A DNA stretch of 54,942 nt from Patescibacteria group bacterium (lineage in GTDB: Bacteria > Patescibacteriota > UBA1384 > UBA12157 > JAENIV01): assembly GCA_023485405.1 (NCBI GenBank), contig JAMCZU010000006.1, positions 1-54,942 on the forward strand, in the 5' to 3' direction. Positions 1,617-51,794 of this stretch are shown in pieces. Below the pieces are notes generated by a model, which saw nothing but the letters and a program-made list of their open reading frames with translations, was not told the DNA's origin and did not search any database. The position numbers and the translations under genes are program-made. Each line of letters begins with the position of its first letter. The first letter of the stretch is position 1.

Positions 1617-1633
1617 AACAATTAACAAGACCG

Positions 1634-1750
1634 AAAAAGGCACACCTGTTGTAAGACAGGGTCGCAAAACCACGGGTCCGACTCGAGTAATCGAGGGATA
1701 GCCGGGTTGCCGGAAATGTGCTCACAGAGTTCGTTTCGGCGAATTTTTTG
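1634..1750 (+). promoter_or_regulatory. Candidate c-di-GMP-I (GEMM-I)-like riboswitch aptamer (1634-1713) plus putative terminator (1709-1750)
   Basis: AAAGGCACACC-UGUU-GUAA-GACA-GGGUCGCAAAACC-ACGGGUC...(CUCGA-GUAA-UCGAG)...GAUAGCCGGGUUGCCG matches remembered GEMM-I blocks GGCAAACC / GGGACGCAAAGCC / AGCGGGGUUACCG. Stem gccg(g)aaa/tttcggc followed by a T-run overlaps the 3' end of the aptamer. Confidence 0.5.
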
Positions 1751-10256: not shown

Positions 10257-10823
10257 ATGAACAAGGTAAAATATCTTTTGACCTATCGTTATGCCGAAAT
10301 CATTCATGATTTGACAGTGGAATTTACTCAAACTTATGTTTTAAGTGGCTTAAGTAACTTAAGAAATCTAAGTTTTCAACGAAGGCCAGATTTTAGGACA
10401 GCCGATCAAATGAATCAAGCTGCTCGAAGTGGTAAACAAAACATTGTCGAAGGAGTTGGGCAAAGCCAAACTTCTTCCAAAGGGTTAATTAAACTTTTAG
10501 GGGTTGCCAACGCTTCTTTTGAGGAACTTCTTTCTGATTATGAAGATTTTCTTCGTCAAAATAAATTAACAATTTACCCAAAAACCGATCAAAGAGTAAC
10601 TGATTTTAGGAAACTTGGTTATCGTCTAAGTGACTTAGGCGAGCTTGAGGAAAAGCCAAAACTTTTAGGCAATCCGGAAAAAGACGCTAATTTTCTTTTG
10701 ACACTTTGCCACTTGGAAACTTATCTTTTGGGTAAACAAGTTAAAGCAGCTGAAGATAAGTTTGTTGAAGAAGGCGGTTATTCGGAAAATCTCTTTAAAA
10801 GAAGACTCCAAAACCGCGAATAA
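10257..10823 (+). CDS. Four-helix-bundle protein (23S rRNA IVS / Avd-like family with C-terminal suffix domain)
   Basis: NIVEG...ASFEEL pattern and overall length resemble four-helix-bundle plus suffix-domain proteins. Not adjacent to an RT. Confidence 0.5.
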   Translation: MNKVKYLLTYRYAEIIHDLTVEFTQTYVLSGLSNLRNLSFQRRPDFRTADQMNQAARSGKQNIVEGVGQSQTSSKGLIKLLGVANASFEELLSDYEDFLRQNKLTIYPKTDQRVTDFRKLGYRLSDLGELEEKPKLLGNPEKDANFLLTLCHLETYLLGKQVKAAEDKFVEEGGYSENLFKRRLQNRE

Positions 10824-10878: not shown

Positions 10879-10909
10879 TTGACAAATGCAGAGAGAGAGA
10901 GAGTTAAAT
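10879..10909 (+). promoter_or_regulatory. Sigma70-type promoter with (AG)7 tract in a 19-nt spacer
   Basis: TTGACA 10879-10884, spacer aatgc(ag)7 of 19 nt, TTAAAT 10904-10909. Confidence 0.45.
10890..10903. repeat. (AG)7 dinucleotide tract
   Basis: Direct reading. Confidence 0.95.
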
Positions 10910-10964: not shown

Positions 10965-11378
10965 ATGGGACCAGAGCAAATATCGCAAGAAGAAGTCCAA
11001 GTGGCCGAGAAGATTGACAAGCAAGAGGAACTTAATCAAGTAGGTTATCGATTTGGCTCCGAGTATTTTCAAGAAATTGTAGACGATGGTCAAACGCCAT
11101 CATCATATCTGTGGAATGGTCGAAGAATATTAAGATCAACTTTGCAGTGTATGGCATCAAAGTTGGTTGAGTCTAATCATGCTAGTACAGTCTATGATCG
11201 TGAGAATACTAAAGATGTTAAATTGTCGCATAACGCGCCTGGTCTGTATGAACTTCAAACGAATGATCCGAATTACCAAGATTTTGTTGAGTCTCTTAAT
11301 GAAATAATGAAGCAATATGATAACTTATTTACGGGTTCAGAAAAAATCCGAGAAGCGGCAAACGAAGAGACTGCTTAA
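10965..11378 (+). CDS. Hypothetical protein, GC-richer orphan (137 aa)
   Basis: GAGGAGG lies 6 nt before the ATG. Terminator acctca/tgaggt plus T-run at about 11408-11436. Confidence 0.5.
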   Translation: MGPEQISQEEVQVAEKIDKQEELNQVGYRFGSEYFQEIVDDGQTPSSYLWNGRRILRSTLQCMASKLVESNHASTVYDRENTKDVKLSHNAPGLYELQTNDPNYQDFVESLNEIMKQYDNLFTGSEKIREAANEETA

Positions 11379-12945: not shown

Positions 12946-14589
12946 ATGGACGAAATACTTTATTTAGAACCAGACGAAGAAATTACTTCGGTCATTGATA
13001 AAATTAAGCAATCGAAAGCCGCTCGATTAGGTTTAGTGGTGCCCAGAGAAGCGACTTTACTTCAAAGTGTGGTCAATTTACGATTACTAGTTAAAGAAGC
13101 CGCTAATTTAGGTAAAGAAATTGCGCTCATTACTTCTGATAAAATTGGTCGAAATCTGGCTTCAAAAGTAGGATTACCAGTTTTTGAATCGGTTAAAAAT
13201 CAACAACCCATCTATCAGCCACCACCACCAGCTATCAATCAAGAAGAAATAATTGAAATTGACGACACACCTAGCATTCCAAAAGAAGAAACAAAACCGC
13301 AAGGTGTTCATGTTCACCACTTTCAGGAAAGAGAAAAAGAACATCGTTTAAAAACAAAAACGCCGGTCAAAACTGAAATAGCAGTGCCTTGGCATCCCGA
13401 AAAAACGCCTAAAGAAGTTGATTTAAAAAATTTGAAAAAAATTATTTGGCCAATGGTGGCACTTGTTATTCTATTAATTTTGATTGGGGCGTTTCTTATT
13501 TTACCAAAAGTTAATGTCAGGCTTAGAGTTCAAGCAGAAAGTTTCCAAAAATCGGTTGATGCTCAGGTCTCCGGAAAAGATGTGACTAATCTTGAAAACA
13601 AAACTTTTTCCGGAACACTGATTGATTTAAGTCAAGAAAAAGAAGAAAAATTTTCTACTACCGGTAAAAAGAATTTGGGTGGCAAAGCCTCAGGAACAAT
13701 TACGATTTATAATAATTTAGATAATAGTAATCATAACTTTTCGGCTGGATCAAAACTTTCTTCTTCATCAAAAACTTTTGTTTTGAAAAACAATGTGACT
13801 ATTCCAGGTGCTGGTGTTCAAAGTGGTAAGGCGGTACCTGGGACAGCGAGCGCCGAAATTGAAGCTGAGGATGCGGGTGAGCAGTACAATGTTTCGGCCG
13901 GCCGCTTTACTATTGTGGGACTGGCGGCGGGAAATCAAGAATTTATTTATGGTCAATCCAGCAAAGATTTAACGGGTGGTTTTTCGAAAGTGGCGCAAGT
14001 GGTTTCTCAAGATGATTACGACAAAGCAAAAAATAAATTAACAACTGAACTGACAGATGACTTAAAAAGCCAATTGCAAGTTAAAGCGACGGGCCAAGAA
14101 ATTTTAGATAATGCCATTCAAATAGATTTGGCAGAGGAATCAACTTCCGCTAAAGTTGATAGTGAAGCCCAAGATTTCACTTTGAAAATAAAAATGAGAC
14201 TTCAAGAAATGGTTTTTCAAAGAAATGATTTTGACCAGTTTATTATTAGTATTTTGGAAAAACAAATTCCTAGCACTCAAATGATAACACTTGGTGCCAA
14301 TGATACTATCTCGCCTCAAATTAAAGAAAAGAAATATGACCAGAGTCTTTTAGTTTTTGATGTTAAAGTTTCAGCCAAAATTTCGGCTAAAATTGATACT
14401 GAGCAAGTTAAAAGTAATTTACAAGGTAAAAATCGTCAAGATGCCACCAATTATTTAAGTGGATTAAATGGTTTGTCTGGTTCAGATTTTATATATTCTC
14501 CTTCTTGGTGGCCAATTAAAAGAATTCCCAATTTTGCTCGTAATTTAACGGTTACCCTTGAATATTTAGAACCGGAGGCAACTCAATGA
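12946..14589 (+). CDS. Hypothetical single-pass membrane protein (large extracytoplasmic domain)
   Basis: ATG at 12946 lies 7 nt after AAGGTG. One TM (IIWPMVALVILLILIGAFLIL). Follows ftsA. Confidence 0.5.
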   Translation: MDEILYLEPDEEITSVIDKIKQSKAARLGLVVPREATLLQSVVNLRLLVKEAANLGKEIALITSDKIGRNLASKVGLPVFESVKNQQPIYQPPPPAINQEEIIEIDDTPSIPKEETKPQGVHVHHFQEREKEHRLKTKTPVKTEIAVPWHPEKTPKEVDLKNLKKIIWPMVALVILLILIGAFLILPKVNVRLRVQAESFQKSVDAQVSGKDVTNLENKTFSGTLIDLSQEKEEKFSTTGKKNLGGKASGTITIYNNLDNSNHNFSAGSKLSSSSKTFVLKNNVTIPGAGVQSGKAVPGTASAEIEAEDAGEQYNVSAGRFTIVGLAAGNQEFIYGQSSKDLTGGFSKVAQVVSQDDYDKAKNKLTTELTDDLKSQLQVKATGQEILDNAIQIDLAEESTSAKVDSEAQDFTLKIKMRLQEMVFQRNDFDQFIISILEKQIPSTQMITLGANDTISPQIKEKKYDQSLLVFDVKVSAKISAKIDTEQVKSNLQGKNRQDATNYLSGLNGLSGSDFIYSPSWWPIKRIPNFARNLTVTLEYLEPEATQ

Positions 14590-15017
14590 CCAAACTTTTA
14601 GGTTTAGACATTGGTGAAAAAAGAATCGGGGTAGCTATAGCCGAAGAAAAAATGGTGGTCCCCTTTGGCATTATTAATAATACCAATCTAGATGAAGCCA
14701 TATCGGAAATCGGTAAAATTTGTCGAAATGAAAATATTTTAAAAATTATTATTGGTATTCCTAAATCGGAAGATTCTGTCCAAGCGGATAAAATCTATAA
14801 ATTCGCGTTGACGCTAGCGCAAAACTTAAATTTAGAAGTTGATTTTGTTGATGAATCTTTAACCTCAAAGGAGGCCGAGAGAGAGCTTAAAAATAGTAAT
14901 TTAGATCCTAAAAGTCACGAATTTAAAGAAGAAGTAGACAAACTTTCAGCTAAATATATTCTAGAACAATACATAAACCAAATCCGAAATCCGAAATCCG
15001 AAATCCGAAAAAAATGA
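14586..15017 (+). CDS. ruvX: Holliday-junction resolvase-like YqgF/RuvX
   Basis: LLGLDIGEKRIGVAIAE N-terminus. ATGA overlaps on both sides. Confidence 0.75.
   Translation: MTKLLGLDIGEKRIGVAIAEEKMVVPFGIINNTNLDEAISEIGKICRNENILKIIIGIPKSEDSVQADKIYKFALTLAQNLNLEVDFVDESLTSKEAERELKNSNLDPKSHEFKEEVDKLSAKYILEQYINQIRNPKSEIRKK
14981..15008. repeat. Tandem heptanucleotide repeat (AATCCGA)x4
   Basis: Direct reading. Encodes the last residues of ruvX and ends 5 nt before the mltG ATG. Confidence 0.95.
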
Positions 15018-15922
15018 AAAAGATTTTATTTATTATTTTTATTATTATTTTTACAGCGATTGCGGGGTTTGCGATTTATTTTTATATTAATCTAAGTAAA
15101 AAAGGCAGTGGCCAGGTAAAAGACTTTATTGTCCGTTCTGGTCAAAGCACGCGTGAAATTGGCGATAATCTTCAAAAAGAAGGACTGATTTCTTCTGCTA
15201 CTGTTTTTACTTATTATGCTAAAATGCGGGCTGATTTGATCCAAGTTGGGGTTTATAAAATAGCGCCGACCCAATCAATCAAAGAAATATTAGCGGTTTT
15301 AACTTCTGGCAAAACCTCTGAAGATATTATTACTATTCCGGAAGGTTGGCGGGTAACCCAAATTGACGACTTTCTTACACAAAAGAAAATTATCCAAAAA
15401 GGAACATTGCTTCAAATTGCCTCGGCTAATGAAGGTTTTTTATTCCCCGACACTTATCGTTTTATGCCTAACACTAAACCTGAAGAGATTCGTCAAGAAA
15501 TGCTTGATAATTTTAATCAAAAAACCACTGATCTTAAAGTCACGCGGGAAAATATTATTTTGGCTTCTATTGTGGAAAGGGAAGCTAAATTTGATGAAGA
15601 TCGAGCGAAAATTGCGGGGGTTTACCTAAATCGTCTGGCACAAAATATGAAATTACAAGCTGACCCAACGGTTCAGTATGCTAAGGGGAGTTGGGACCCA
15701 ATTACAGTTTCTGATTATAAAAATGTCAACTCACCTTACAATACTTATCAAAATTTAGGCTTACCGCCTGGACCAATTTGTAACCCAGGAATTAAATCAA
15801 TTGAGGCTGCTTTACATCCGGAAAAAAGTGACTATCTTTATTTTTTTCATAAAAGTGATGGTCATGCGGTTTTTTCAACCACCCTCCAAGAACACGAAGC
15901 AAAGTTAAAACAGTCTAATTAA
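15014..15922 (+). CDS. mltG: Endolytic murein transglycosylase MltG (YceG family)
   Basis: PEGWRV, EGFLFPDTY, ASIVEREA and LPPGPICNPG motifs. Confidence 0.85.
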   Translation: MKKILFIIFIIIFTAIAGFAIYFYINLSKKGSGQVKDFIVRSGQSTREIGDNLQKEGLISSATVFTYYAKMRADLIQVGVYKIAPTQSIKEILAVLTSGKTSEDIITIPEGWRVTQIDDFLTQKKIIQKGTLLQIASANEGFLFPDTYRFMPNTKPEEIRQEMLDNFNQKTTDLKVTRENIILASIVEREAKFDEDRAKIAGVYLNRLAQNMKLQADPTVQYAKGSWDPITVSDYKNVNSPYNTYQNLGLPPGPICNPGIKSIEAALHPEKSDYLYFFHKSDGHAVFSTTLQEHEAKLKQSN

Positions 15923-16098
15923 CCAAAATGTCCACCTCGTAGGTGGACAACAGGTTTAGGAATGTAAAGAACTATTGACAAAAAGGCTATTTTAAGGTAT
16001 AATAATATTTAATATTGAGTAGTTTAACAATTTTTCCTTGGAGCTTATTTGGTCGGGAAAATGGTCAGTTTATCCTGATTAGGTAAGCTCTAAGGAGC
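15919..16098 (+). repeat. 180-bp cassette 5' module, copy 1 (family A hairpin, promoter and structured leader)
   Basis: Near-identical (a handful of substitutions) to 50746-50925. Confidence 0.9.
15975..16003 (+). promoter_or_regulatory. Consensus sigma70 promoter of the DGR target gene
   Basis: TTGACA, 17 nt, TATAAT. Confidence 0.7.
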
Positions 16099-16147: not shown

Positions 16148-16816
16148 ATGGAAAAAGATCGAGTTACCCTCGAACCGGCAGCAGAGGACTACGGTAGAAG
16201 ATGTAAGAGCATTGGCTTGGAGCGGAAGACTGTAGCTGATTTGCAAGATGCGATGAGTCATCCGGAATTCAAGACCAGCCATCACACTCTTCTCGACAGA
16301 TTGGCTGTTGAGTATCGCTTGAGCAAACCGCTCATAGAGCGGCCGCCCTTCGCAACGATCCAGATCGGAACCTTCAAGAATCTGAACAATCTTCGGAGTG
16401 CGTTGAAGAATGCCAAGTGCAACATCTCAAGCTACGCTGACGATCTCTTTGGTCGAGTTACCTTGGCTACGGAGCCGATGATCCTCGACCTCTGCCGAGC
16501 TTCCAATGCCGAACTTGGTTTGACCCAGGGTGGCACGGTTGCTCAGACGTTCGAGGCGATCGCCAAGATTGGTGGCGAGAAGCTTCCGGCGGAAGCTGGA
16601 CCGCAGTATCGTCTGCAGAATCTCGACCAGAAATTGGGTGAATGGGAACTGATTTATATGGATCCCATCATCGACCGCGTTGGTTGCCCGGACGTGTTCA
16701 GCGTCGAGCACGGCAAGGGCGGTCTCTGGCTCTACGGCTACAATGCCAGTCCTGACTACTTCTACCACGCCGAGTTCGTCTGGGTGTTCAGTCGCAAGCG
16801 ATCTGTTGGTTCTTGA
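16148..16816 (+). CDS. DGR target (variable) protein, 222 aa, GC-rich, no signal peptide or TM visible
   Basis: AAGGAG lies 9 nt before the ATG. The last 44 codons are the VR matching the downstream TR. Confidence 0.85.
   Translation: MEKDRVTLEPAAEDYGRRCKSIGLERKTVADLQDAMSHPEFKTSHHTLLDRLAVEYRLSKPLIERPPFATIQIGTFKNLNNLRSALKNAKCNISSYADDLFGRVTLATEPMILDLCRASNAELGLTQGGTVAQTFEAIAKIGGEKLPAEAGPQYRLQNLDQKLGEWELIYMDPIIDRVGCPDVFSVEHGKGGLWLYGYNASPDYFYHAEFVWVFSRKRSVGS
16665..16797 (+). repeat. DGR variable repeat (VR)
   Basis: Gapless 133-bp alignment with TR at a 531-bp offset. 16 mismatches, all opposite TR adenines. Confidence 0.9.
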
Positions 16817-16857
16817 GTTTTGGATTCTTGTTCCTTTTGTTTTTTTGGGTTTTGTCT

Positions 16858-16879
16858 GGGCCCCGCGTGAGCGGGGCCC
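16858..16879 (+). terminator. GC-rich hairpin about 60 nt downstream of VR (terminator and/or DGR homing-associated hairpin)
   Basis: gggccccgc-gtga-gcggggccc. The same hairpin recurs at 51705-51726. Confidence 0.55.
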
Positions 16880-16976
16880 AATTTGTATCAACAAATTGGG
16901 TTTTCCGAAAAAAATTTTCGTATTTAATCTTCCATCAAACTTGACAGATGAGTACTCTTTAAGGAAAAATGAATAT

Positions 16977-17370
16977 GGTATTAGGTGAATATGCGGGTGG
17001 TTATGGCTTCCCGCTACCGAGCCTAAGTATCGCTTTTTATCCAGAGTGTTCCCAGCTACGGCTTGGGGCAGAGCGATAAGCGAATGCTTAAAAAAATGAA
17101 GATGCTTGGTGCAAGGCGCTAGTGGGTTAAATGGCCCAGAATAAAATACAGTCCTGAGAGCAATCGAAGGACAGTGACTATAGAGAGCGTCTGGTACAAA
17201 ATCGACCGCGATGGTTACCCGAACGTGTTCAACGTCGAACACGACAAGGACGGTCTCTGGCTCAACGGCAACAATGCCAATCCTGACAACTTCTACCACG
17301 CCGAGAACGTCTGGGTGTTCAGTCGCAACTTTCTTCATTTCTCCCGTAGTAAACGGGAGTTTTGCTTTTT
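16977..17370 (+). ncRNA. Putative DGR template RNA (structured 5' region, TR and 3' hairpin); ends approximate
   Basis: Possible promoter TTGACA (16941-16946), 18 nt, AAAAAT. Several GC stems upstream of TR. Hairpin ctcccg-tagtaaa-cgggag plus ttttgcttttt at 17341-17370. Confidence 0.4.
17196..17328 (+). repeat. DGR template repeat (TR)
   Basis: See VR. About 38 adenines, many in AAC codons. The 5' boundary is uncertain by a few nt. Confidence 0.9.
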
Positions 17371-17710
17371 AGTTGAGACTTCTTATCCATCCACCGAGCA
17401 TTCTACCAATTTCTTGTAGATTTTCCGAGAGTGATAAATATCTTTTAGTTGATATGGCTTTAACGTCTTCGGCCAATCGAAGCAAATTTTTAAGTAAATC
17501 AAGTTTGGCTGATGCTACTGACAGGGTTTCGAGCTTTTGATGTTTACCTTGATGACTTGCCAAAATTAAATCTTTAAAAAGTTCAAGTATGGTTTCTTGG
17601 ATTCTTTCGCCTAAAACATAGCGATCTTGCTTAGGAATGTGAGGATACAGTTTATATAATTCGCGATAAAAATCGTAGACCTTTTGAACAATTGGAACAT
17701 CATTATTCAT
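17369..17710 (-). CDS. avd: DGR accessory variability determinant (Avd-like four-helix-bundle protein), about 113 aa
   Basis: From the internal ATG at 17710 (AGAGG 6 nt upstream): MNNDVPIVQKVYDFYRELYKL...IGRMLGGWIRSLN, typical of the Avd / 23S-IVS family. Lies between TR and RT but on the opposite strand. Confidence 0.75.
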   Translation of the reverse strand: MNNDVPIVQKVYDFYRELYKLYPHIPKQDRYVLGERIQETILELFKDLILASHQGKHQKLETLSVASAKLDLLKNLLRLAEDVKAISTKRYLSLSENLQEIGRMLGGWIRSLN

Positions 17711-18721
17711 GGATAACCTCTTTAATAAAATTATTTCAATAGAAAACTTATTTTTGTCTTGGAAAGAATTCAGAAAAGAAAAACGTAAGAAAGCCGATGT
17801 ACAAGAATTTGAGCGGAATTTAGAAGATAATCTTTTTAGTCTGCATCTGGAGCTTAAAAACAAAACTTACCAACATTCCGATTATACCTCATTTTACATT
17901 ACTGATCCAAAATCAAGGCATATCCACAAGGCGTGCGTAAAAGATAGAATTGTCCATCATGCGATTTATCGAGTACTATATCCAATGTTTGATCCGATTT
18001 TTGTGGATGATTCCTATTCTTGTCGTAATAAAAAAGGAACACACAAAGCGGTAAAACGATTAGAAAAATTTAGCCGAATTGTAAGTCACAATTATAATAA
18101 ATCTTGCTGGGCGTTAAAATGTGATATTAAAAAATATTTTGCTTCAGTTAATCATCAAATCCTTTTTGGTTTAATTAAAAATAAAATTCAAGATAAAGAT
18201 GTTCTATGGCTAATTTTTGAAATAATTTCCAGTTTCACAACTCGAGAGAGAGAGAGAGAGGAATACCGATTGGCAATTTAACATCACAACTTTTTGCCAA
18301 TATTTATTTAAACGAGTTGGACCAATTTGTTAAACATCGTTTAAGGATTAAGTACTATCTTAGATACTGTGACGATTTTATTATTTTAGACAATAACCAT
18401 TTAAATTTAGAAAATCTTATTGGTCAGATTCAATTCTTTCTCGATTGCCAGCTTGGTTTGAAACTGCATCGGAGAAAAATTATTATTCGAAAACTTAATC
18501 AAGGAATTGATTTTCTAGGCTATATGATTTTACCACACTATATCTTGCCTAGAAGAAGAACTGTCCGCCGAATTTTTCGAAGTCTAGAGAAAAAAGTTAC
18601 TACCGAACCACAAAAAGCCAATGCCAGTTTGCAATCGAACTTGGGTTATCTAAATCATGCCAATGCCTACAAAATTTCAAAGGCCTTAAAGAAGATTTGC
18701 AAAAAAATTAAAACAATCTAA
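17709..18721 (+). CDS. DGR reverse transcriptase, interrupted by a +2 frameshift in a (GA)8 tract (two ORFs, 17709-18281 and frame-2 continuation to 18721)
   Basis: RT motifs CDIKKYFASVNH, then in the next frame GIPIGNLTSQLFANIYLNELD (DGR-type), YCDD and GIDFLGY. Removing one GA unit gives one continuous ORF. Confidence 0.85.
18244..18260. repeat. (GA)8G dinucleotide tract inside the RT gene
   Basis: Direct reading. Confidence 0.95.
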
Positions 18722-18769: not shown

Positions 18770-18967
18770 TTATTCATTGCCATCGTCAAAGGGGGCTCGG
18801 GCATTTTCTGCTTCAATCTGCTCTAGCAGCTCCTTGCGATGAACCGGTATATCTCGCGGGGCGTCAATACCTAGACGCACTTGGTCTCCTCTGATTTCGA
18901 TGACTAGTATTTCTACGTTGTCGTTAATCACAATAGATTGGCCGGTTTTTCTGGCTAAGACCAACAT
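18770..18967 (-). CDS. csrA: Carbon storage regulator CsrA (RNA-binding translational regulator), 65 aa
   Basis: MLVLARKTGQSIVINDNVEILVIEIRGDQVRLGIDAPRDIPVHRKE is a near-textbook CsrA sequence. AAGGAGG lies 9 nt before the ATG at 18967. Confidence 0.85.
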   Translation of the reverse strand: MLVLARKTGQSIVINDNVEILVIEIRGDQVRLGIDAPRDIPVHRKELLEQIEAENARAPFDDGNE

Positions 18968-18996
18968 TTTCAACGACCTCCTTTTCGACTATGTCA

Positions 18997-19704: not shown

Positions 19705-20751
19705 ATGCAAATATTAGATCGTTTTTGGGGCATATTCTCTCACGATATCGGGATTGATTTAGGTACAGCCAACACTTTGGTCTACGTTCGTGATAAAGGC
19801 ATTGTGATCAATGAGCCATCAGTCGTGGCAATTAACCAAAAATCTAAACAAATTTTAGCAATTGGCAACGATGCGCGCAAAATGGTCGGTCGGACTCCTT
19901 CGCATATTGTGGCGATCAGACCTTTGGTTGATGGGGTTATTTCTGATTTTGAAGTCACCGAACAAATGCTTAAATATTTTATTGATAAAGTTCATCGTGA
20001 AAAATTTTCTCTTTTCCCACGGCCGCGGATCGTCATTGGTATACCTTATGGGGTGACAGAAGTAGAGCGGCGGGCAGTTGAAGAAGCGGCTTTAAATGCG
20101 GGTGCCAGGCAAGTTTTTTTAATTGAAGAACCAGTCGCGGCCGCCATTGGGGCAAGACTGCCAATTCAAGAAGCCAATGGCAATATGGTGGTAGATATTG
20201 GTGGTGGCACCACTGAAGTGGCGGTTATTTCCTTAGGTGGGATTGTGGCCTCAAGGTCACTTCGGATTGCTGGTGATGAAATGAACCAAGATATTATTGC
20301 TTTTGCTCGTGATAAATTAAGTTTACTTTTGGGGGAAAGAACAGCTGAGGATATAAAATTTACGATTGGTTCAGCTATTGTTAAAGAGAATACCGAGATG
20401 CCGATGCGCGGGCGTGATTTGGTAACAGGCCTACCCAAAGAAATTATGGTTAATGCTGAGCAAGTAAACTTGGCTTTAAAGAAATCGGTGACCCAAATTG
20501 TGGAGGCAATTCGTGTCACAATGGAAGAAACACCACCAGAATTGGTGGCGGATATTATGGAAAAAGGGATTGTTCTTTGTGGCGGTGGCGCGTTACTTAA
20601 AGGTCTTGATCAGTTGATTTTTGAGACAACCAAAACAAGAGTTCACATTGCTAATGATCCTCTAACCTCAGTCGTGCGAGGAACTGGCTTAGTTCTAGAA
20701 GATCTCGAAAGTTTGAAAGGTGTTTTACTGCCGACTCAATTTAATCCTTAA
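19705..20751 (+). CDS. mreB: Rod-shape-determining protein MreB
   Basis: IGIDLGTANT, DIGGGTTEVAV and LCGGGALLKGLD. Confidence 0.9.
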   Translation: MQILDRFWGIFSHDIGIDLGTANTLVYVRDKGIVINEPSVVAINQKSKQILAIGNDARKMVGRTPSHIVAIRPLVDGVISDFEVTEQMLKYFIDKVHREKFSLFPRPRIVIGIPYGVTEVERRAVEEAALNAGARQVFLIEEPVAAAIGARLPIQEANGNMVVDIGGGTTEVAVISLGGIVASRSLRIAGDEMNQDIIAFARDKLSLLLGERTAEDIKFTIGSAIVKENTEMPMRGRDLVTGLPKEIMVNAEQVNLALKKSVTQIVEAIRVTMEETPPELVADIMEKGIVLCGGGALLKGLDQLIFETTKTRVHIANDPLTSVVRGTGLVLEDLESLKGVLLPTQFNP

Positions 20752-50745: not shown

Positions 50746-50925
50746 TTAACCAAAATGTCCACCTCGTAGGTGGACAACAGGTTTAGGAATGTAAAGAACT
50801 ATTGACAAAAAGGTTATTTTAAGGTGTAATAACATGTAATATTGAGTAGTTTAACAATTTTTCCTTGGAGCTTATTTGGTCGGGAAAATAGTCAGTTTAT
50901 CCTGATTAGATAAGCTCTAAGGAGC
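50746..50925 (+). repeat. 180-bp cassette 5' module, copy 2
   Basis: Near-identical to 15919-16098. Confidence 0.9.
50802..50830 (+). promoter_or_regulatory. Sigma70 promoter (copy of the DGR-target promoter)
   Basis: TTGACA, 17 nt, TGTAAT. Confidence 0.6.
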
Positions 50926-50976: not shown

Positions 50977-51687
50977 ATGAAGAAAGGACTGACCATGTCG
51001 GAAGATATGCTCAGCAAGACGCTAGTCCGAGAGCTACCCGGACTGATGCGCGACTTCATGAAGAAAGTGCTCGGCGACAACGGACAAGAATGGATAGAGG
51101 CCTTCAAGAGGTTCTTGAAGAAGCAGAACCCTTGGTCCGATGCATCTTCGTCCAAACCAGCTAAGAAGCGTCTCAAAGTGCTCCAGCCACTAAAAGCGGT
51201 TGCCGAGTTCTTGATGACGTTGGAATTCCGAGCTGCTGACAACTTCAGTATCACACCGCAGGATCAGAAAACAACCGCAGAAGTAGTCATTGGTTTCCTT
51301 AATGACAACTTCAAGAACGCGTTTCTTGCGAACGGCGGAAAGGTCGAGACCAGCATCTTTGACTCCAAGCTTCGGCCTTATCGTCTCAAGAAGGCGTCGG
51401 TAGACGGTCCGATCATTGCTGATCTCGGCGGAGAAGAGAAGGTTGAGACCACTCTTGCCGAGATGTTCACGCTGATGAAGGCACAGGGCTGTGGACGGCG
51501 AGGCATCCTGCTAACTAATGGCTATGCCAACATCTTCTATGTAAGAGACGCTAAAGGTATACTTTGGGTGGTCTCTTGCGCTTGGTTCTCGGACGATCAG
51601 TTTTGGCTCGTTCGTGCCTATCCAATTACGGATCTGAGTACATGGAACGCTGAGCGTCAGGTGTTCTCTCGTGATTTTGGTTCTTAG
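50977..51687 (+). CDS. Paralog of the DGR target protein (236 aa), GC-rich, no TR-matching VR
   Basis: Shares the 5' module, the 3' flank and C-terminal pattern (..IF.V...KG.LW......VFSR..GS*) with CDS 16148-16816. Confidence 0.7.
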   Translation: MKKGLTMSEDMLSKTLVRELPGLMRDFMKKVLGDNGQEWIEAFKRFLKKQNPWSDASSSKPAKKRLKVLQPLKAVAEFLMTLEFRAADNFSITPQDQKTTAEVVIGFLNDNFKNAFLANGGKVETSIFDSKLRPYRLKKASVDGPIIADLGGEEKVETTLAEMFTLMKAQGCGRRGILLTNGYANIFYVRDAKGILWVVSCAWFSDDQFWLVRAYPITDLSTWNAERQVFSRDFGS

Positions 51688-51704: not shown

Positions 51705-51726
51705 GGGCCCCGCATGAGCGGGGTCC
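51705..51726 (+). terminator. GC hairpin terminator (copy of 16858-16879) followed by T-rich tract
   Basis: gggccccgc-atga-gcggggtcc followed by aattttgttttgtttt. Confidence 0.7.
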
Positions 51727-51794
51727 AATTTTGTTTTGTTTTATCTTCCAATTTCAGGGGAAATTTGCTAAAATTAATGCAGAATGGGGAAAAT

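What the first reader, a model, noticed from the sequence alone, without database searches (positions are those of the whole stretch)
16665..17328. Complete diversity-generating retroelement: TR/VR pair with strictly adenine-specific differences
VR (16665-16797, the last 44 codons of CDS 16148-16816) aligns without gaps to TR (17196-17328) at a constant 531-bp offset. I count 16 mismatches, and every one has an adenine in TR: positions 17196, 17199, 17200, 17211, 17217, 17222, 17232, 17239, 17244, 17250, 17264, 17270, 17280, 17288, 17306 and 17307. They are replaced in VR by C, T or G. No TR C, G or T differs. TR has about 38 adenines, many in AAC codons (..NVFNVEHDKDGLWLNGNNANPDNFYHAENV..). 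The final 21 nt (cgtctgggtgttcagtcgcaa) are identical in both, including three unsubstituted adenines, as expected of an IMH-like segment. An Avd-like gene and an RT with the DGR-type IGNLTSQ motif lie immediately downstream. This is the hallmark of mutagenic retrohoming.
Basis: partly seen in the sequence, partly recalled or inferred. Interest (0 to 1): 0.85.

Follow-up and report, generated by a model that had tools for sequence, protein, structure and literature searches.

The report
Diversity-generating retroelement, reverse transcriptase switched off
This is a real adenine-mutating retroelement (DGR) in an uncultured ultra-small bacterium, but its reverse transcriptase is knocked out of frame by a slippery (GA)8 repeat that in relatives varies between in-frame and out-of-frame lengths, which suggests a repeat-based on/off switch for targeted hypermutation.

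Summary
VR 16665-16797 aligns without gaps to TR 17196-17328, with 16 mismatches, all at TR adenines (p about 1e-10). Avd passes the curated DGR-Avd model. The RT is closest to the Bordetella phage DGR RT. 106 related CPR loci share the layout VR-TR-avd(reverse)-RT.

"Complete DGR" is only partly right. Avd is on the opposite strand (known architecture B3). The RT is split over two frames at a (GA)8 tract (18244-18259), and losing one unit would restore a 336-aa RT. Two other assemblies show the same frameshift.

The tract is a lineage feature:
- Relatives carry (GA/AG)8-16 in the same RT loop.
- A length-unbiased protein sample gives about 10 in-frame and 36 out-of-frame alleles, in both shifted frames.
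- One element exists as (AG)9 intact and (AG)10 split, with no other difference in 1,744 bp.
- Out-of-frame alleles keep both RT halves open and clean TR/VR pairs.
- Two samples of one out-of-frame relative differ at 16 sites in 6.3 kb, all at TR-adenine sites in the VR.

Best reading: a standard CPR DGR in a reversible OFF or low-expression phase set by a hypermutable repeat. No description of this was found in the literature searched.

The parts
15975..16003 (+). Perfect sigma-70-like promoter (TTGACA-17-TATAAT) upstream of the target gene
   Evidence: 12/12 match. It lies within a 149-nt segment (15950-16098) that is 96% identical to 50777-50925.
16036..16095 (+). Long near-perfect hairpin (about 27 bp) in the 5' leader of the target mRNA; function unknown
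   Evidence: RNAfold. The same hairpin occurs in the copy near 50.86 kb.
16148..16816 (+). Target gene (222 aa), a GC-rich island (53.5% GC against 36.5% for the window). No Pfam, NCBIfam or PDB sequence match. 30 CPR homologs with hypervariable C-termini.
   Evidence: AlphaFold model pLDDT 92.9. No significant structural neighbour.
16665..16797 (+). Variable repeat (VR), codons 173-217; secure core 16670-16797
16777..16797 (+). IMH-like 21-nt segment identical to TR 17308-17328, including 3 unsubstituted A
   Evidence: Its function is inferred from the Bordetella phage DGR model described in PMC5758913.
16857..16880 (+). GC-rich hairpin TGGGCCCCGC-GTGA-GCGGGGCCCA, about 60 nt 3' of VR. Either a target-recognition hairpin as in other DGRs, a terminator, or both.
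   Evidence: -24 kcal/mol. 45 of 100 relatives have a hairpin of -12 kcal/mol or stronger in the same place, against 8 of 100 controls. The same hairpin also follows the unrelated gene at 51.7 kb.
16941..16970 (+). Promoter-like site (TTGACA-18-AAAAAT) that could start a separate TR RNA
   Evidence: 10/12. Inferred, not tested.
17196..17328 (+). Template repeat (TR), 38 adenines, 7 in-frame AAC codons
17341..17369 (+). Hairpin CTCCCGT-AGTAA-ACGGGAG followed by TTTTGCTTTT, 12 nt after TR. Either the terminator of the TR RNA or part of the RNA that follows TR.
   Evidence: Not generally conserved in relatives.
17369..17710 (-). avd accessory gene (113 aa), divergent from the RT; its start codon overlaps the RT start
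   Evidence: Pfam bAvd 83 bits (cutoff 40). NCBIfam DivGenRetAVD 97.7 bits (cutoff 80). Divergent avd in 140 of 140 relatives.
17709..18281 (+). RT, N-terminal reading frame (190 codons). Runs through the (GA)8 tract and stops at a TAA inside the IGNLTSQ coding stretch.
18244..18259 (+). (GA)8 dinucleotide tract that shifts the RT frame; (GA)7 would give an intact 336-aa RT (...TTRERERGIPIGNLTSQ...)
   Evidence: One of only two dinucleotide runs of 6 or more units in the 55-kb window.
18260..18721 (+). RT, C-terminal part in the +2 frame (GIPIGNLTSQ, RYCDD, GIDFLGY), open to its stop
   Evidence: dN/dS against relatives is 0.085-0.16.

Best explanation
This is a chromosomal diversity-generating retroelement of a CPR (Patescibacteria) bacterium. 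Its layout is the known one: target(VR) - TR - avd(reverse strand) - RT.

How it works (inferred from the Bordetella phage model):
1. A TR-containing RNA is copied by the RT-Avd complex into cDNA, with random bases opposite template adenines.
2. The cDNA replaces the VR, recoding up to about 20 codons in the C-terminal region of a 222-aa protein of unknown function.

In the sequence as read, the RT is out of frame at a hypermutable (GA)8 tract in the variable loop just before the GxPIGNLTSQ motif. The element is therefore in an OFF, or at most very low expression, phase. Slippage of the tract by one unit would restore a full-length RT and switch mutagenesis back on.

What is shown: the TR/VR signature, Avd, the RT family, the frameshift and its position, the tract polymorphism among relatives, and VR turnover in an out-of-frame relative.

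What is inferred: that this particular copy reverts, that the switch is selected rather than merely tolerated, and all the biochemistry.

Confidence that it is a DGR is about 0.97. Confidence in the reversible repeat-gated OFF reading is about 0.6, and that is the figure given for the whole statement.
For: DGR identity:
- 16 of 16 mismatches are at TR adenines, p = 1.2e-10.
- 36 of 38 TR adenines are at codon positions 1 or 2, all 7 AAC codons are changed, and codon changes are 14 non-synonymous to 1 synonymous.
- Avd is above the curated equivalog cutoff.
- The RT's best solved-structure match is 8ub7_A, 141 bits, sharing GIPIG(N/S)LTSQLFAN.
- 106 of 164 related loci show A-biased TR/VR pairs in the same layout, and avd is divergent in 140 of 140.

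Frameshift:
- The two RT halves are in different frames and meet at (GA)8; removing one unit restores the frame.
- The same (GA)8 is present in two other assemblies, L001 and L002.
- The catalytic motifs are intact.
- dN/dS of the downstream half is 0.085-0.16, like the upstream half.

The tract as a lineage feature:
- (GA/AG)8-16 tracts occur at the same loop in relatives.
- In the N-half search there are 10 ON, 36 OFF (both shifted frames) and 13 proteins ending at the tract.
- L164 with (AG)10 is split while L004 and L165-L168 with (AG)9 are intact. L164 and L004 have 0 mismatches and one 2-nt gap in 1,744 bp.
- OFF alleles on contigs of 85-867 kb keep both halves open, with TR/VR mismatches at TR adenines in 14/14, 19/20, 18/21 and 16/17.
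- L177 and L178, both (GA)13 out of frame, differ at 16 sites in 6,362 bp, all in the VR and all at TR adenines.
- 26 of 27 dinucleotide tracts of 6 or more units in 1.04 Mb of related loci lie in the RT loop or just upstream of the RT, p about 6e-36.
Against: - No in-frame allele of the window's own lineage was found. The window, L001 and L002 all have (GA)8 and the same VR, so reversibility here is by analogy with relatives.
- The ON fraction (10 of 46) is not above the 1/3 expected for random tract lengths. That fits neutral drift of a tolerated repeat as well as a selected switch.
- dS is saturated, so dN/dS says nothing about very recent relaxation.
- VR turnover in L177/L178 could also be explained by slippage during transcription, or by an RT encoded elsewhere in that genome.
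- Read-level heterogeneity could not be examined.
- The target's fold and function are unassigned.
Confidence: 0.6

Rival explanations
1. Recoding rather than DNA switching. The out-of-frame gene still yields some full-length RT, because RNA polymerase (or, less likely, the ribosome) slips on the (GA)n tract. The tract would then be a constitutive attenuator keeping RT levels low, and the 'OFF' alleles would not really be off.
For: L177 and L178 rewrote their VR although both consensus sequences are out of frame. OFF alleles predominate yet stay intact. A 2-nt slip within a tract of 16 nt or more keeps an RNA:DNA hybrid fully paired (inference).
Against: All three frame states occur, and DNA-level length differences are directly seen, so DNA slippage certainly happens. 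A fixed-direction programmed ribosomal frameshift does not fit both shifted frames plus in-frame alleles. To my knowledge, transcriptional slippage is established for homopolymer runs, not dinucleotide runs. There is no slippery heptamer.
Confidence: 0.15
2. Decay. The RT has been inactivated for good by a frameshift in a mutation-prone repeat. The TR/VR pair is a fossil of past activity, and this DGR is on its way to loss.
For: The RT is out of frame in three assemblies with an identical VR. The ON fraction among tract-bearing relatives is no higher than chance. None of 160 loci selected by full-length tblastn is split, so intact RTs are the norm outside the tract-bearing lineages.
Against: There is no second lesion. 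Both halves are open, the motifs are intact, avd and the target are intact, and non-adenine TR/VR positions are 95/95 identical. The tract persists across lineages with 46-80% RT identity, with ON and OFF states interspersed. An OFF relative shows recent VR turnover. A one-unit ON/OFF pair exists.
Confidence: 0.17
3. Artefact. The extra GA unit is a sequencing or assembly error, and the RT is really intact.
For: Dinucleotide repeats show PCR stutter. 13 related protein calls end exactly at the tract, which suggests assemblers have trouble there.
Against: The same (GA)8 appears in the window and in two Logan assemblies from different runs. 36 independent out-of-frame alleles from many projects, in both frames, include contigs of 85-867 kb. 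The tracts (16-32 nt) are far shorter than a read.
Confidence: 0.05
4. Not a DGR. The TR/VR similarity is an ordinary duplication next to a group II intron or retron-type RT.
For: NCBIfam's best (sub-threshold) RT hit is the group II intron RT/maturase model, and some sources label relatives 'retron-type'.
Against: The adenine-only mismatches have p about 1e-10. Avd passes the equivalog model. bRT is the best structural-database match. 106 relatives have the same A-biased repeat layout. No intron RNA, maturase or retron ncRNA features were found by Rfam.
Confidence: 0.01

Closest known systems
Bordetella phage BPP-1 DGR (mtd-avd-TR-brt), the prototype
   Same: TR/VR pair with adenine-specific substitutions concentrated in AAC codons. 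VR near the 3' end of the target gene. An invariant 3' segment (IMH-like) and a GC-rich hairpin downstream. An Avd four-helix-bundle accessory protein. RT with the GIPIGxLTSQLFAN motif; bRT is the best solved-structure match.
   Different: Chromosomal in a CPR bacterium, not a phage. avd is on the opposite strand and overlaps the RT start. TR lies upstream of avd, so the RNA following TR would be antisense to avd. IMH and IMH* are identical over 21 nt. The hairpin is about 60 nt (not a few nt) from the VR. The target is not recognisably Mtd or C-type lectin by sequence. The RT carries a (GA)n-encoded insertion where bRT has a short PDEGV loop, and here it is out of frame.
CPR DGRs: 'CPR set' with Architecture B3, TR-(avd)-RT, of Wu et al. 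2018 (PMC5758913); DGR clade 2 of Roux et al. 2021 (PMC8144416)
   Same: Same host group, same gene order and avd orientation (140 of 140 relatives), and the same kind of small target protein without known domains. Thousands of RT homologs at 45-78% identity.
   Different: Neither survey mentions dinucleotide repeats in or next to the RT, or split RTs caused by them (term searches; library searches). The window's copy is an out-of-frame allele.
Simple-sequence-repeat contingency loci (phase variation) of Haemophilus, Neisseria and Campylobacter
   Same: An intragenic repeat tract whose unit number sets the reading frame. ON and OFF alleles differ by one unit in otherwise identical DNA. Both shifted frames are seen, and the flanking ORF halves are kept intact.
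   Different: The gated gene is not a surface structure or restriction-modification enzyme but the enzyme of a targeted hypermutation system. The host is an uncultured CPR bacterium. The repeat is a dinucleotide (GA)n encoding (Arg-Glu)n. Switching rates and within-population heterogeneity have not been measured.

Membership tests
Diversity-generating retroelement (DGR) | TR/VR repeat pair whose differences are (nearly) confined to adenines of the TR | tested here: met
   16 of 16 mismatches at TR adenines (13 of 13 in the BLAST core); p = 1.2e-10 and 4e-9.
Diversity-generating retroelement (DGR) | VR lies inside a protein-coding target gene, with mutable adenines at codon positions 1 and 2 (AAC-rich) | tested here: met
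   VR covers codons 173-217 of CDS 16148-16816. 36 of 38 TR adenines are at codon positions 1 or 2, and there are 7 AAC codons.
Diversity-generating retroelement (DGR) | RT of the DGR clade (motif 4 [IL]GxxxSQ; closer to known DGR RTs than to group II intron or retron RTs) | tested here: met
   GIPIGNLTSQ is present. Best PDB sequence hit is 8ub7_A, 141 bits, against about 83 bits for group II intron and retron-type RTs. That 8ub7 is BPP-1 bRT rests on my knowledge of its sequence, not on the tool's label. No formal phylogeny was built.
Diversity-generating retroelement (DGR) | RT gene is an intact open reading frame | tested here: not met
   The frame is broken at (GA)8, 18244-18259; the two halves are in frames 0 and +2. 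The same is seen in L001 and L002.
Diversity-generating retroelement (DGR) | Accessory variability determinant (Avd) next to TR and RT | tested here: met
   NCBIfam DivGenRetAVD 97.7 bits (cutoff 80); Pfam bAvd 83 bits (cutoff 40).
Diversity-generating retroelement (DGR) | IMH/IMH* at the 3' end of VR/TR and a GC-rich inverted repeat downstream of VR only | tested here: inconclusive
   A 21-nt invariant 3' segment is present. A GC hairpin lies at 16857-16880 after VR and not after TR and is enriched in relatives. However, it sits about 60 nt away and also follows an unrelated gene at 51.7 kb, so it may simply be a terminator.
Diversity-generating retroelement (DGR) | Ongoing diversification: VR polymorphism at TR-adenine sites within or between populations | tested here: inconclusive
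   For the window's own lineage, the three consensus sequences have identical VRs, and reads are not available. In a sister lineage (L177/L178), 16 of 16 differences are at TR-adenine sites in the VR.
Diversity-generating retroelement (DGR) | Variable residues displayed on a C-type lectin or Ig-like fold | tested here: inconclusive
   The model is confident (pLDDT 92.9), but no hit has E < 0.001. There are only weak C-type-lectin-domain matches (TM 0.45-0.47 normalised to the target, E about 1-6).
CPR DGR, Architecture B3, TR-(avd)-RT (Wu et al. 2018) | Order TR, avd on the reverse strand, then RT; CPR host | tested here: met
   The architecture is defined in PMC5758913. Relatives are named Levybacteria, Daviesbacteria and Patescibacteria.
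SSR-mediated phase-variable (contingency) gene | Intragenic simple repeat, long enough to be slippage-prone, with a unit not divisible by 3 | tested here: met
   (GA)8 inside the RT. Relatives have 8-16 units.
SSR-mediated phase-variable (contingency) gene | Alleles that differ only in unit number, giving in-frame and out-of-frame states | tested here: met
   Met in a relative: L164 with (AG)10 is split and L004 with (AG)9 is intact, with 0 mismatches in 1,744 bp. This was not found for the window's own lineage.
SSR-mediated phase-variable (contingency) gene | Out-of-frame alleles otherwise intact (no secondary lesions), implying reversibility | tested here: met
   In the window and 6 other OFF lineages, both RT halves are open and the TR/VR pairs are clean. 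dN/dS of the downstream half is 0.085-0.16.
SSR-mediated phase-variable (contingency) gene | High-frequency, reversible switching within a population | not testable with these tools
   This needs read-level or single-cell data, or culture. Only consensus assemblies are available.

The most novel reading that the evidence does not exclude
Dinucleotide repeats are a selected, lineage-wide on/off (bet-hedging) switch for DGR hypermutation in CPR bacteria. They occur in two alternative placements: (GA)n inside a tolerant RT loop, as in this window, or (GT)n/(CT)n filling the tiny divergent avd-RT spacer, as in other relatives. Under this reading, most cells carry a silent mutator and rare slippage events open short bursts of target diversification. 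That would be a contingency locus controlling a diversity generator, and it would explain 'inactive' DGRs and pulsed VR turnover in metagenomes.
Probability: 0.45. Interest if true: 0.8.

Novelty: new variant of a known kind. Interest (0 to 1): 0.66.

Why it matters
DGRs are the only known natural system of targeted protein hypermutation in prokaryotes, and CPR bacteria are their richest reservoir. How their activity is controlled is largely unknown. A slippery repeat that sets the reading frame of the RT would give a simple, heritable and reversible control, with a diversifying subpopulation and a stable majority.

It would change how metagenomic DGR surveys should be read. Split RTs are usually discarded as non-functional, yet here an element with a split RT has rewritten its VR.

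It is also directly testable with existing read data, by comparing tract-length heterogeneity with VR diversity, and with standard heterologous cDNA assays.

If the tract is only a tolerated mutational liability, the finding is still a useful caution: a large fraction of one CPR DGR lineage sits out of frame at any time.

Tried and rejected
- Rfam at gathering thresholds on the window and on 17 relatives found only tRNAs and one riboswitch. A relaxed scan gave a 21.5-bit partial hit to RT-7 RNA at 17040-17093 (gathering score 116.8), not reproduced in relatives and treated as chance.
- Pfam, NCBIfam, a PDB sequence profile and Foldseek (PDB and BFVD) on the target protein gave no assignable family or fold.
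- A search for further VRs in the window found none.
- A search for other alleles of the window's own lineage, using exact matches to Avd, CsrA and the RT C-terminal ORF, found only L001 and L002, both identical to the window.
- The pairs L172/L173, L174/L175 and L169/L170 were 100% identical and therefore uninformative.
- My start-codon heuristic for the avd-RT spacers failed and was replaced by direct inspection.
- A hairpin with a T-run after TR is present in the window but is not general in relatives, so I do not claim it as a conserved element.
- The protein at 50977-51687 is not significantly similar to the target (E = 0.038 for one short segment), so 'paralog' is not established.
- No near-identical pair was found for the (GT)n spacer class; the closest flanks are 84% identical with 10 and 20 units.
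- Paul et al. 2017 could not be retrieved.
Full report
**1. The observation**

The claimed alignment reproduces exactly.
- Window 16665-16797 (VR) and 17196-17328 (TR) align without gaps at a 531-bp offset.
- There are 16 mismatches at the listed positions. Every one is an A in TR, replaced by T (7), G (7) or C (2).
- TR holds 38 adenines in 133 nt. The chance that 16 random mismatches all fall on adenines is 1.2e-10.
- The three 5'-most mismatches sit at a ragged edge. The BLAST core 17201-17328 has 13 mismatches, all at A (p = 4e-9).
- The last 21 nt are identical, and similarity ends abruptly after them.
- In frame, 36 of 38 TR adenines are at codon positions 1 or 2. All seven AAC codons are changed. 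14 codon changes are non-synonymous against 1 synonymous.
- No other VR exists in the window.

**2. The parts**

The target is CDS 16148-16816 (222 aa).
- It has no Pfam, NCBIfam or PDB-sequence match.
- Its 30 homologs, all from CPR metagenomes, have conserved scaffold residues interspersed with hypervariable positions in the last 45 residues or so.
- An AlphaFold model built from that alignment is confident (pLDDT 92.9, pTM 0.83).
- Foldseek finds nothing significant in PDB or BFVD. There are only weak C-type-lectin-domain matches. I therefore leave the fold unassigned.

Regulatory-looking sites around the target and TR:
- A perfect consensus promoter (15975-16003) precedes the target.
- A promoter-like site (16941-16970) and a hairpin with a T-run (17341-17369) bracket the TR.
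- A GC hairpin with a GTGA loop lies about 60 nt after the VR.
- Comparable hairpins follow the VR in 45 of 100 relatives, against 8 of 100 controls.

Avd (113 aa) is on the minus strand, 17710 to 17369. It passes NCBIfam DivGenRetAVD (97.7 bits, cutoff 80) and Pfam bAvd. Its start codon overlaps the RT start (17709) within CATG.

**3. The RT is out of frame**

- ORF 17709-18281 (190 codons) ends at a TAA that lies inside the DNA encoding IGNLTSQ.
- The motif itself, and the rest of the RT up to 18721, are in the +2 frame.
- The two tblastn segments meet at a (GA)8 tract, 18244-18259.
- Removing one GA unit gives a 336-aa RT (...TTRERERGIPIGNLTSQ...) with intact DIKKYF, RYCDD and GIDFLGY motifs.
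This is a 328-aa RT that I recognise as Bordetella phage bRT. Group II intron and retron-type RTs score about 83 bits.
- It also has more than 7,900 homologs, named where named as Levybacteria, Daviesbacteria or Patescibacteria.
- Two Logan assemblies from different runs (L001, L002) are 100% identical to the window over 2.6-2.7 kb, including (GA)8 and the VR.
- The frameshift is therefore reproducible.

**4. Context in the family**

I fetched 160 related loci.
- Avd is divergent and immediately upstream of the RT in all 140 loci where it is detectable.
- 106 of 164 loci show an A-biased TR/VR pair in the same order VR-TR-avd(-)-RT(+).
- This is the catalogued "Architecture B3, TR-(avd)-RT" of Wu et al. 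2018 (PMC5758913). It belongs to the CPR clade of DGRs (clade 2 of Roux et al. 2021, PMC8144416).
- Apart from the frameshift, the element is a typical member.

**5. The repeat tract is a recurrent, length-variable feature**

The closest intact RTs carry RERERE at the same loop, just before GxPIGNLTSQ. bRT and most relatives have a short loop there.

At the DNA level these are (GA)15, (AG)9, (GA)11, (GA)8, (GA)8, (AG)9 and (CT)14.

In 1.04 Mb of related loci there are 27 dinucleotide tracts of 6 or more units:
- 8 lie in this RT loop.
- 18 lie within about 100 nt upstream of the RT, in the short divergent avd-RT spacer.
- 1 lies elsewhere. The enrichment has p about 6e-36.

Searching with the window's real 190-aa product does not favour full-length proteins. 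The closest hits are dominated by fragments of 170-240 aa. 49 of the 65 short proteins end at or just after an RERE tract.

Classified:

| State | Count |
|---|---|
| In frame (ON) | 10 |
| Out of frame, tails "..RLAI*" (the window's shifted frame) | 13 |
| Out of frame, tails "..DWQFN..FCQYL.." (the other shifted frame) | 10 |
| Out of frame, other tails | 13 |
| Ending exactly at the tract | 13 |

Several of the out-of-frame proteins are on contigs of 85-867 kb.

**6. DNA-level tests**

- L164 carries (AG)10 and a split RT. L004 and L165-L168 carry (AG)9 and an intact RT. L164 and L004 have no mismatch and a single 2-nt gap over 1,744 bp.
- Out-of-frame alleles L169 (AG)10, L171 (GA)8, L172 (GA)14 and L174 (GA)16 are broken only at the tract. 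Some need +1 unit and others -1 unit to come back into frame.
- These alleles retain TR/VR pairs with 14/14, 19/20, 18/21 and 16/17 mismatches at TR adenines.
- dN/dS between the window and relatives is 0.085-0.16 for the half downstream of the tract, against 0.06-0.13 upstream. dS is saturated, so this speaks only to the long term.
- L177 and L178 are the most telling. They are the same element from two JGI samples, with an RT N-half 76% identical to the window's and a target of the same family. Both carry an out-of-frame (GA)13.
- They differ at 16 positions in 6,362 bp. All 16 are inside the VR and all are at TR-adenine sites. The TR and the tract are identical in both.
- An element whose consensus RT is out of frame has therefore rewritten its VR, while nothing else changed.

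**7. Interpretation**

The window holds a bona fide CPR DGR whose RT sits in an out-of-frame state of a hypermutable (GA)n tract. The best-supported mechanism is mutagenic retrohoming gated by repeat slippage: one unit lost or two gained restores the RT.

Shown:
- the tract polymorphism
- the intactness of OFF alleles
- VR turnover in an OFF relative

Inferred:
- that this copy reverts
- that the switch is selected

The ON fraction (10 of 46) is not above the 1/3 expected by chance. Neutral tolerance of a slippery insertion in a permissive loop therefore remains possible.

Rivals:
- Low-level recoding by transcriptional slippage. This also fits L177/L178, but is not known to me for dinucleotide tracts.
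- Irreversible decay.
- Assembly error. This is argued against.

**8. Comparison with what is known, and novelty**

The DGR itself is a new member of a known kind. The repeat-gated RT appears to be undescribed. Five full-text searches that combined DGR terms with simple sequence repeats, dinucleotide repeats, phase variation, contingency loci, frameshift or CPR/avd returned no paper connecting them. Term searches inside Wu 2018 and Roux 2021 found no mention. The library is incomplete, and Paul et al. 2017 could not be read. I therefore rate it a new variant of a known kind, with moderate to high interest that rests on the switch hypothesis.

**9. Host context**

The flanking ORFs read as housekeeping genes.
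- CsrA lies at 18770-18973 on the minus strand (Pfam PF02599 in the gene table).
- By my own reading of the translations, not tested, there is an MreB-like ORF at 19705-20751, a RuvX-like ORF at 14586-15017 and an MltG-like ORF at 15014-15922.
- There are also eight tRNA genes, and the window's G+C is 36.5%.

This is a cellular chromosome, not a phage.

Noticed in passing
Related loci L005, L006, L007, L009, L013, L014, L084-L086, L088, L091, L093, L094, L098 ((GT)6-20); L012, L042, L047 ((CT)12-28); L068 ((GA)8): In other lineages of the same RT clade, a dinucleotide tract fills most of the short divergent spacer between the avd and RT starts. The flanks are conserved (e.g. CTATAGGCA-(GT)n-GAATATC...TGTATGCAT) and the unit numbers differ between relatives. 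Together with the RT-loop tracts, these account for 26 of 27 long dinucleotide runs in 1.04 Mb. This may be a second, promoter or 5'-UTR level version of the same control.
   Followed up: partly
window 15950-16098 and 50777-50925; hairpins 16857-16880 and about 51709-51730; CDS 50977-51687: A 149-nt segment is 96% identical at two loci 35 kb apart. It contains the consensus promoter and a 5'-UTR hairpin of about 27 bp. The same GC hairpin follows both genes. The gene between them at 51 kb (236 aa, no Pfam hit, 50% GC) is not significantly similar to the DGR target and has no TR match. A partial match to the leader lies upstream of the target gene in L015. This is a shared expression cassette of unknown meaning.
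   Followed up: partly
window 16148-16816 and 50977-51687: Both leader-sharing genes are GC-rich islands (53.5% and 50.4% GC) in a 36.5% GC window. The avd (34.5%) and RT (31%) genes have host-like composition. The high GC extends well beyond the VR.
   Followed up: no
L177 3945-4071 against L178 2599-2725: Two samples of one related element differ only in the VR: 16 of 16 differences are at TR-adenine sites, with none elsewhere in 6.3 kb. This is a clean natural record of a retrohoming event between samples JGI 3300038418 and 3300041418.
   Followed up: yes
proteins P0153, P0156, P0157, P0159, P0160, P0167, P0176, P0181, P0196, P0205, P0208, P0220, P0235: Thirteen related RT gene calls end exactly at the RERE tract, mostly on short contigs. 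This suggests that assemblies often break at the repeat, as would happen if tract length is heterogeneous in the sampled population. Contig ends were not inspected.
   Followed up: no
window 10890-10903: The only other long dinucleotide run in the window, (AG)7, is intergenic. It lies 67 nt after an ORF (10257-10823) with a sub-threshold match to the Avd-related 23S_rRNA_IVP family (25.9 bits, cutoff 33.8) and 62 nt before ORF 10965-11378.
   Followed up: partly
window 1630-1715: A c-di-GMP-I-GGC riboswitch aptamer (68.7 bits, gathering score 59) lies in another GC-rich patch. It is followed by a small ORF with no Pfam match.
   Followed up: no
window 17040-17093: A weak partial hit to Rfam RT-7 RNA (21.5 bits against a gathering score of 116.8, E = 0.016) lies in the spacer upstream of TR. 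It was not seen in 17 relatives at gathering threshold and is probably chance.
   Followed up: yes
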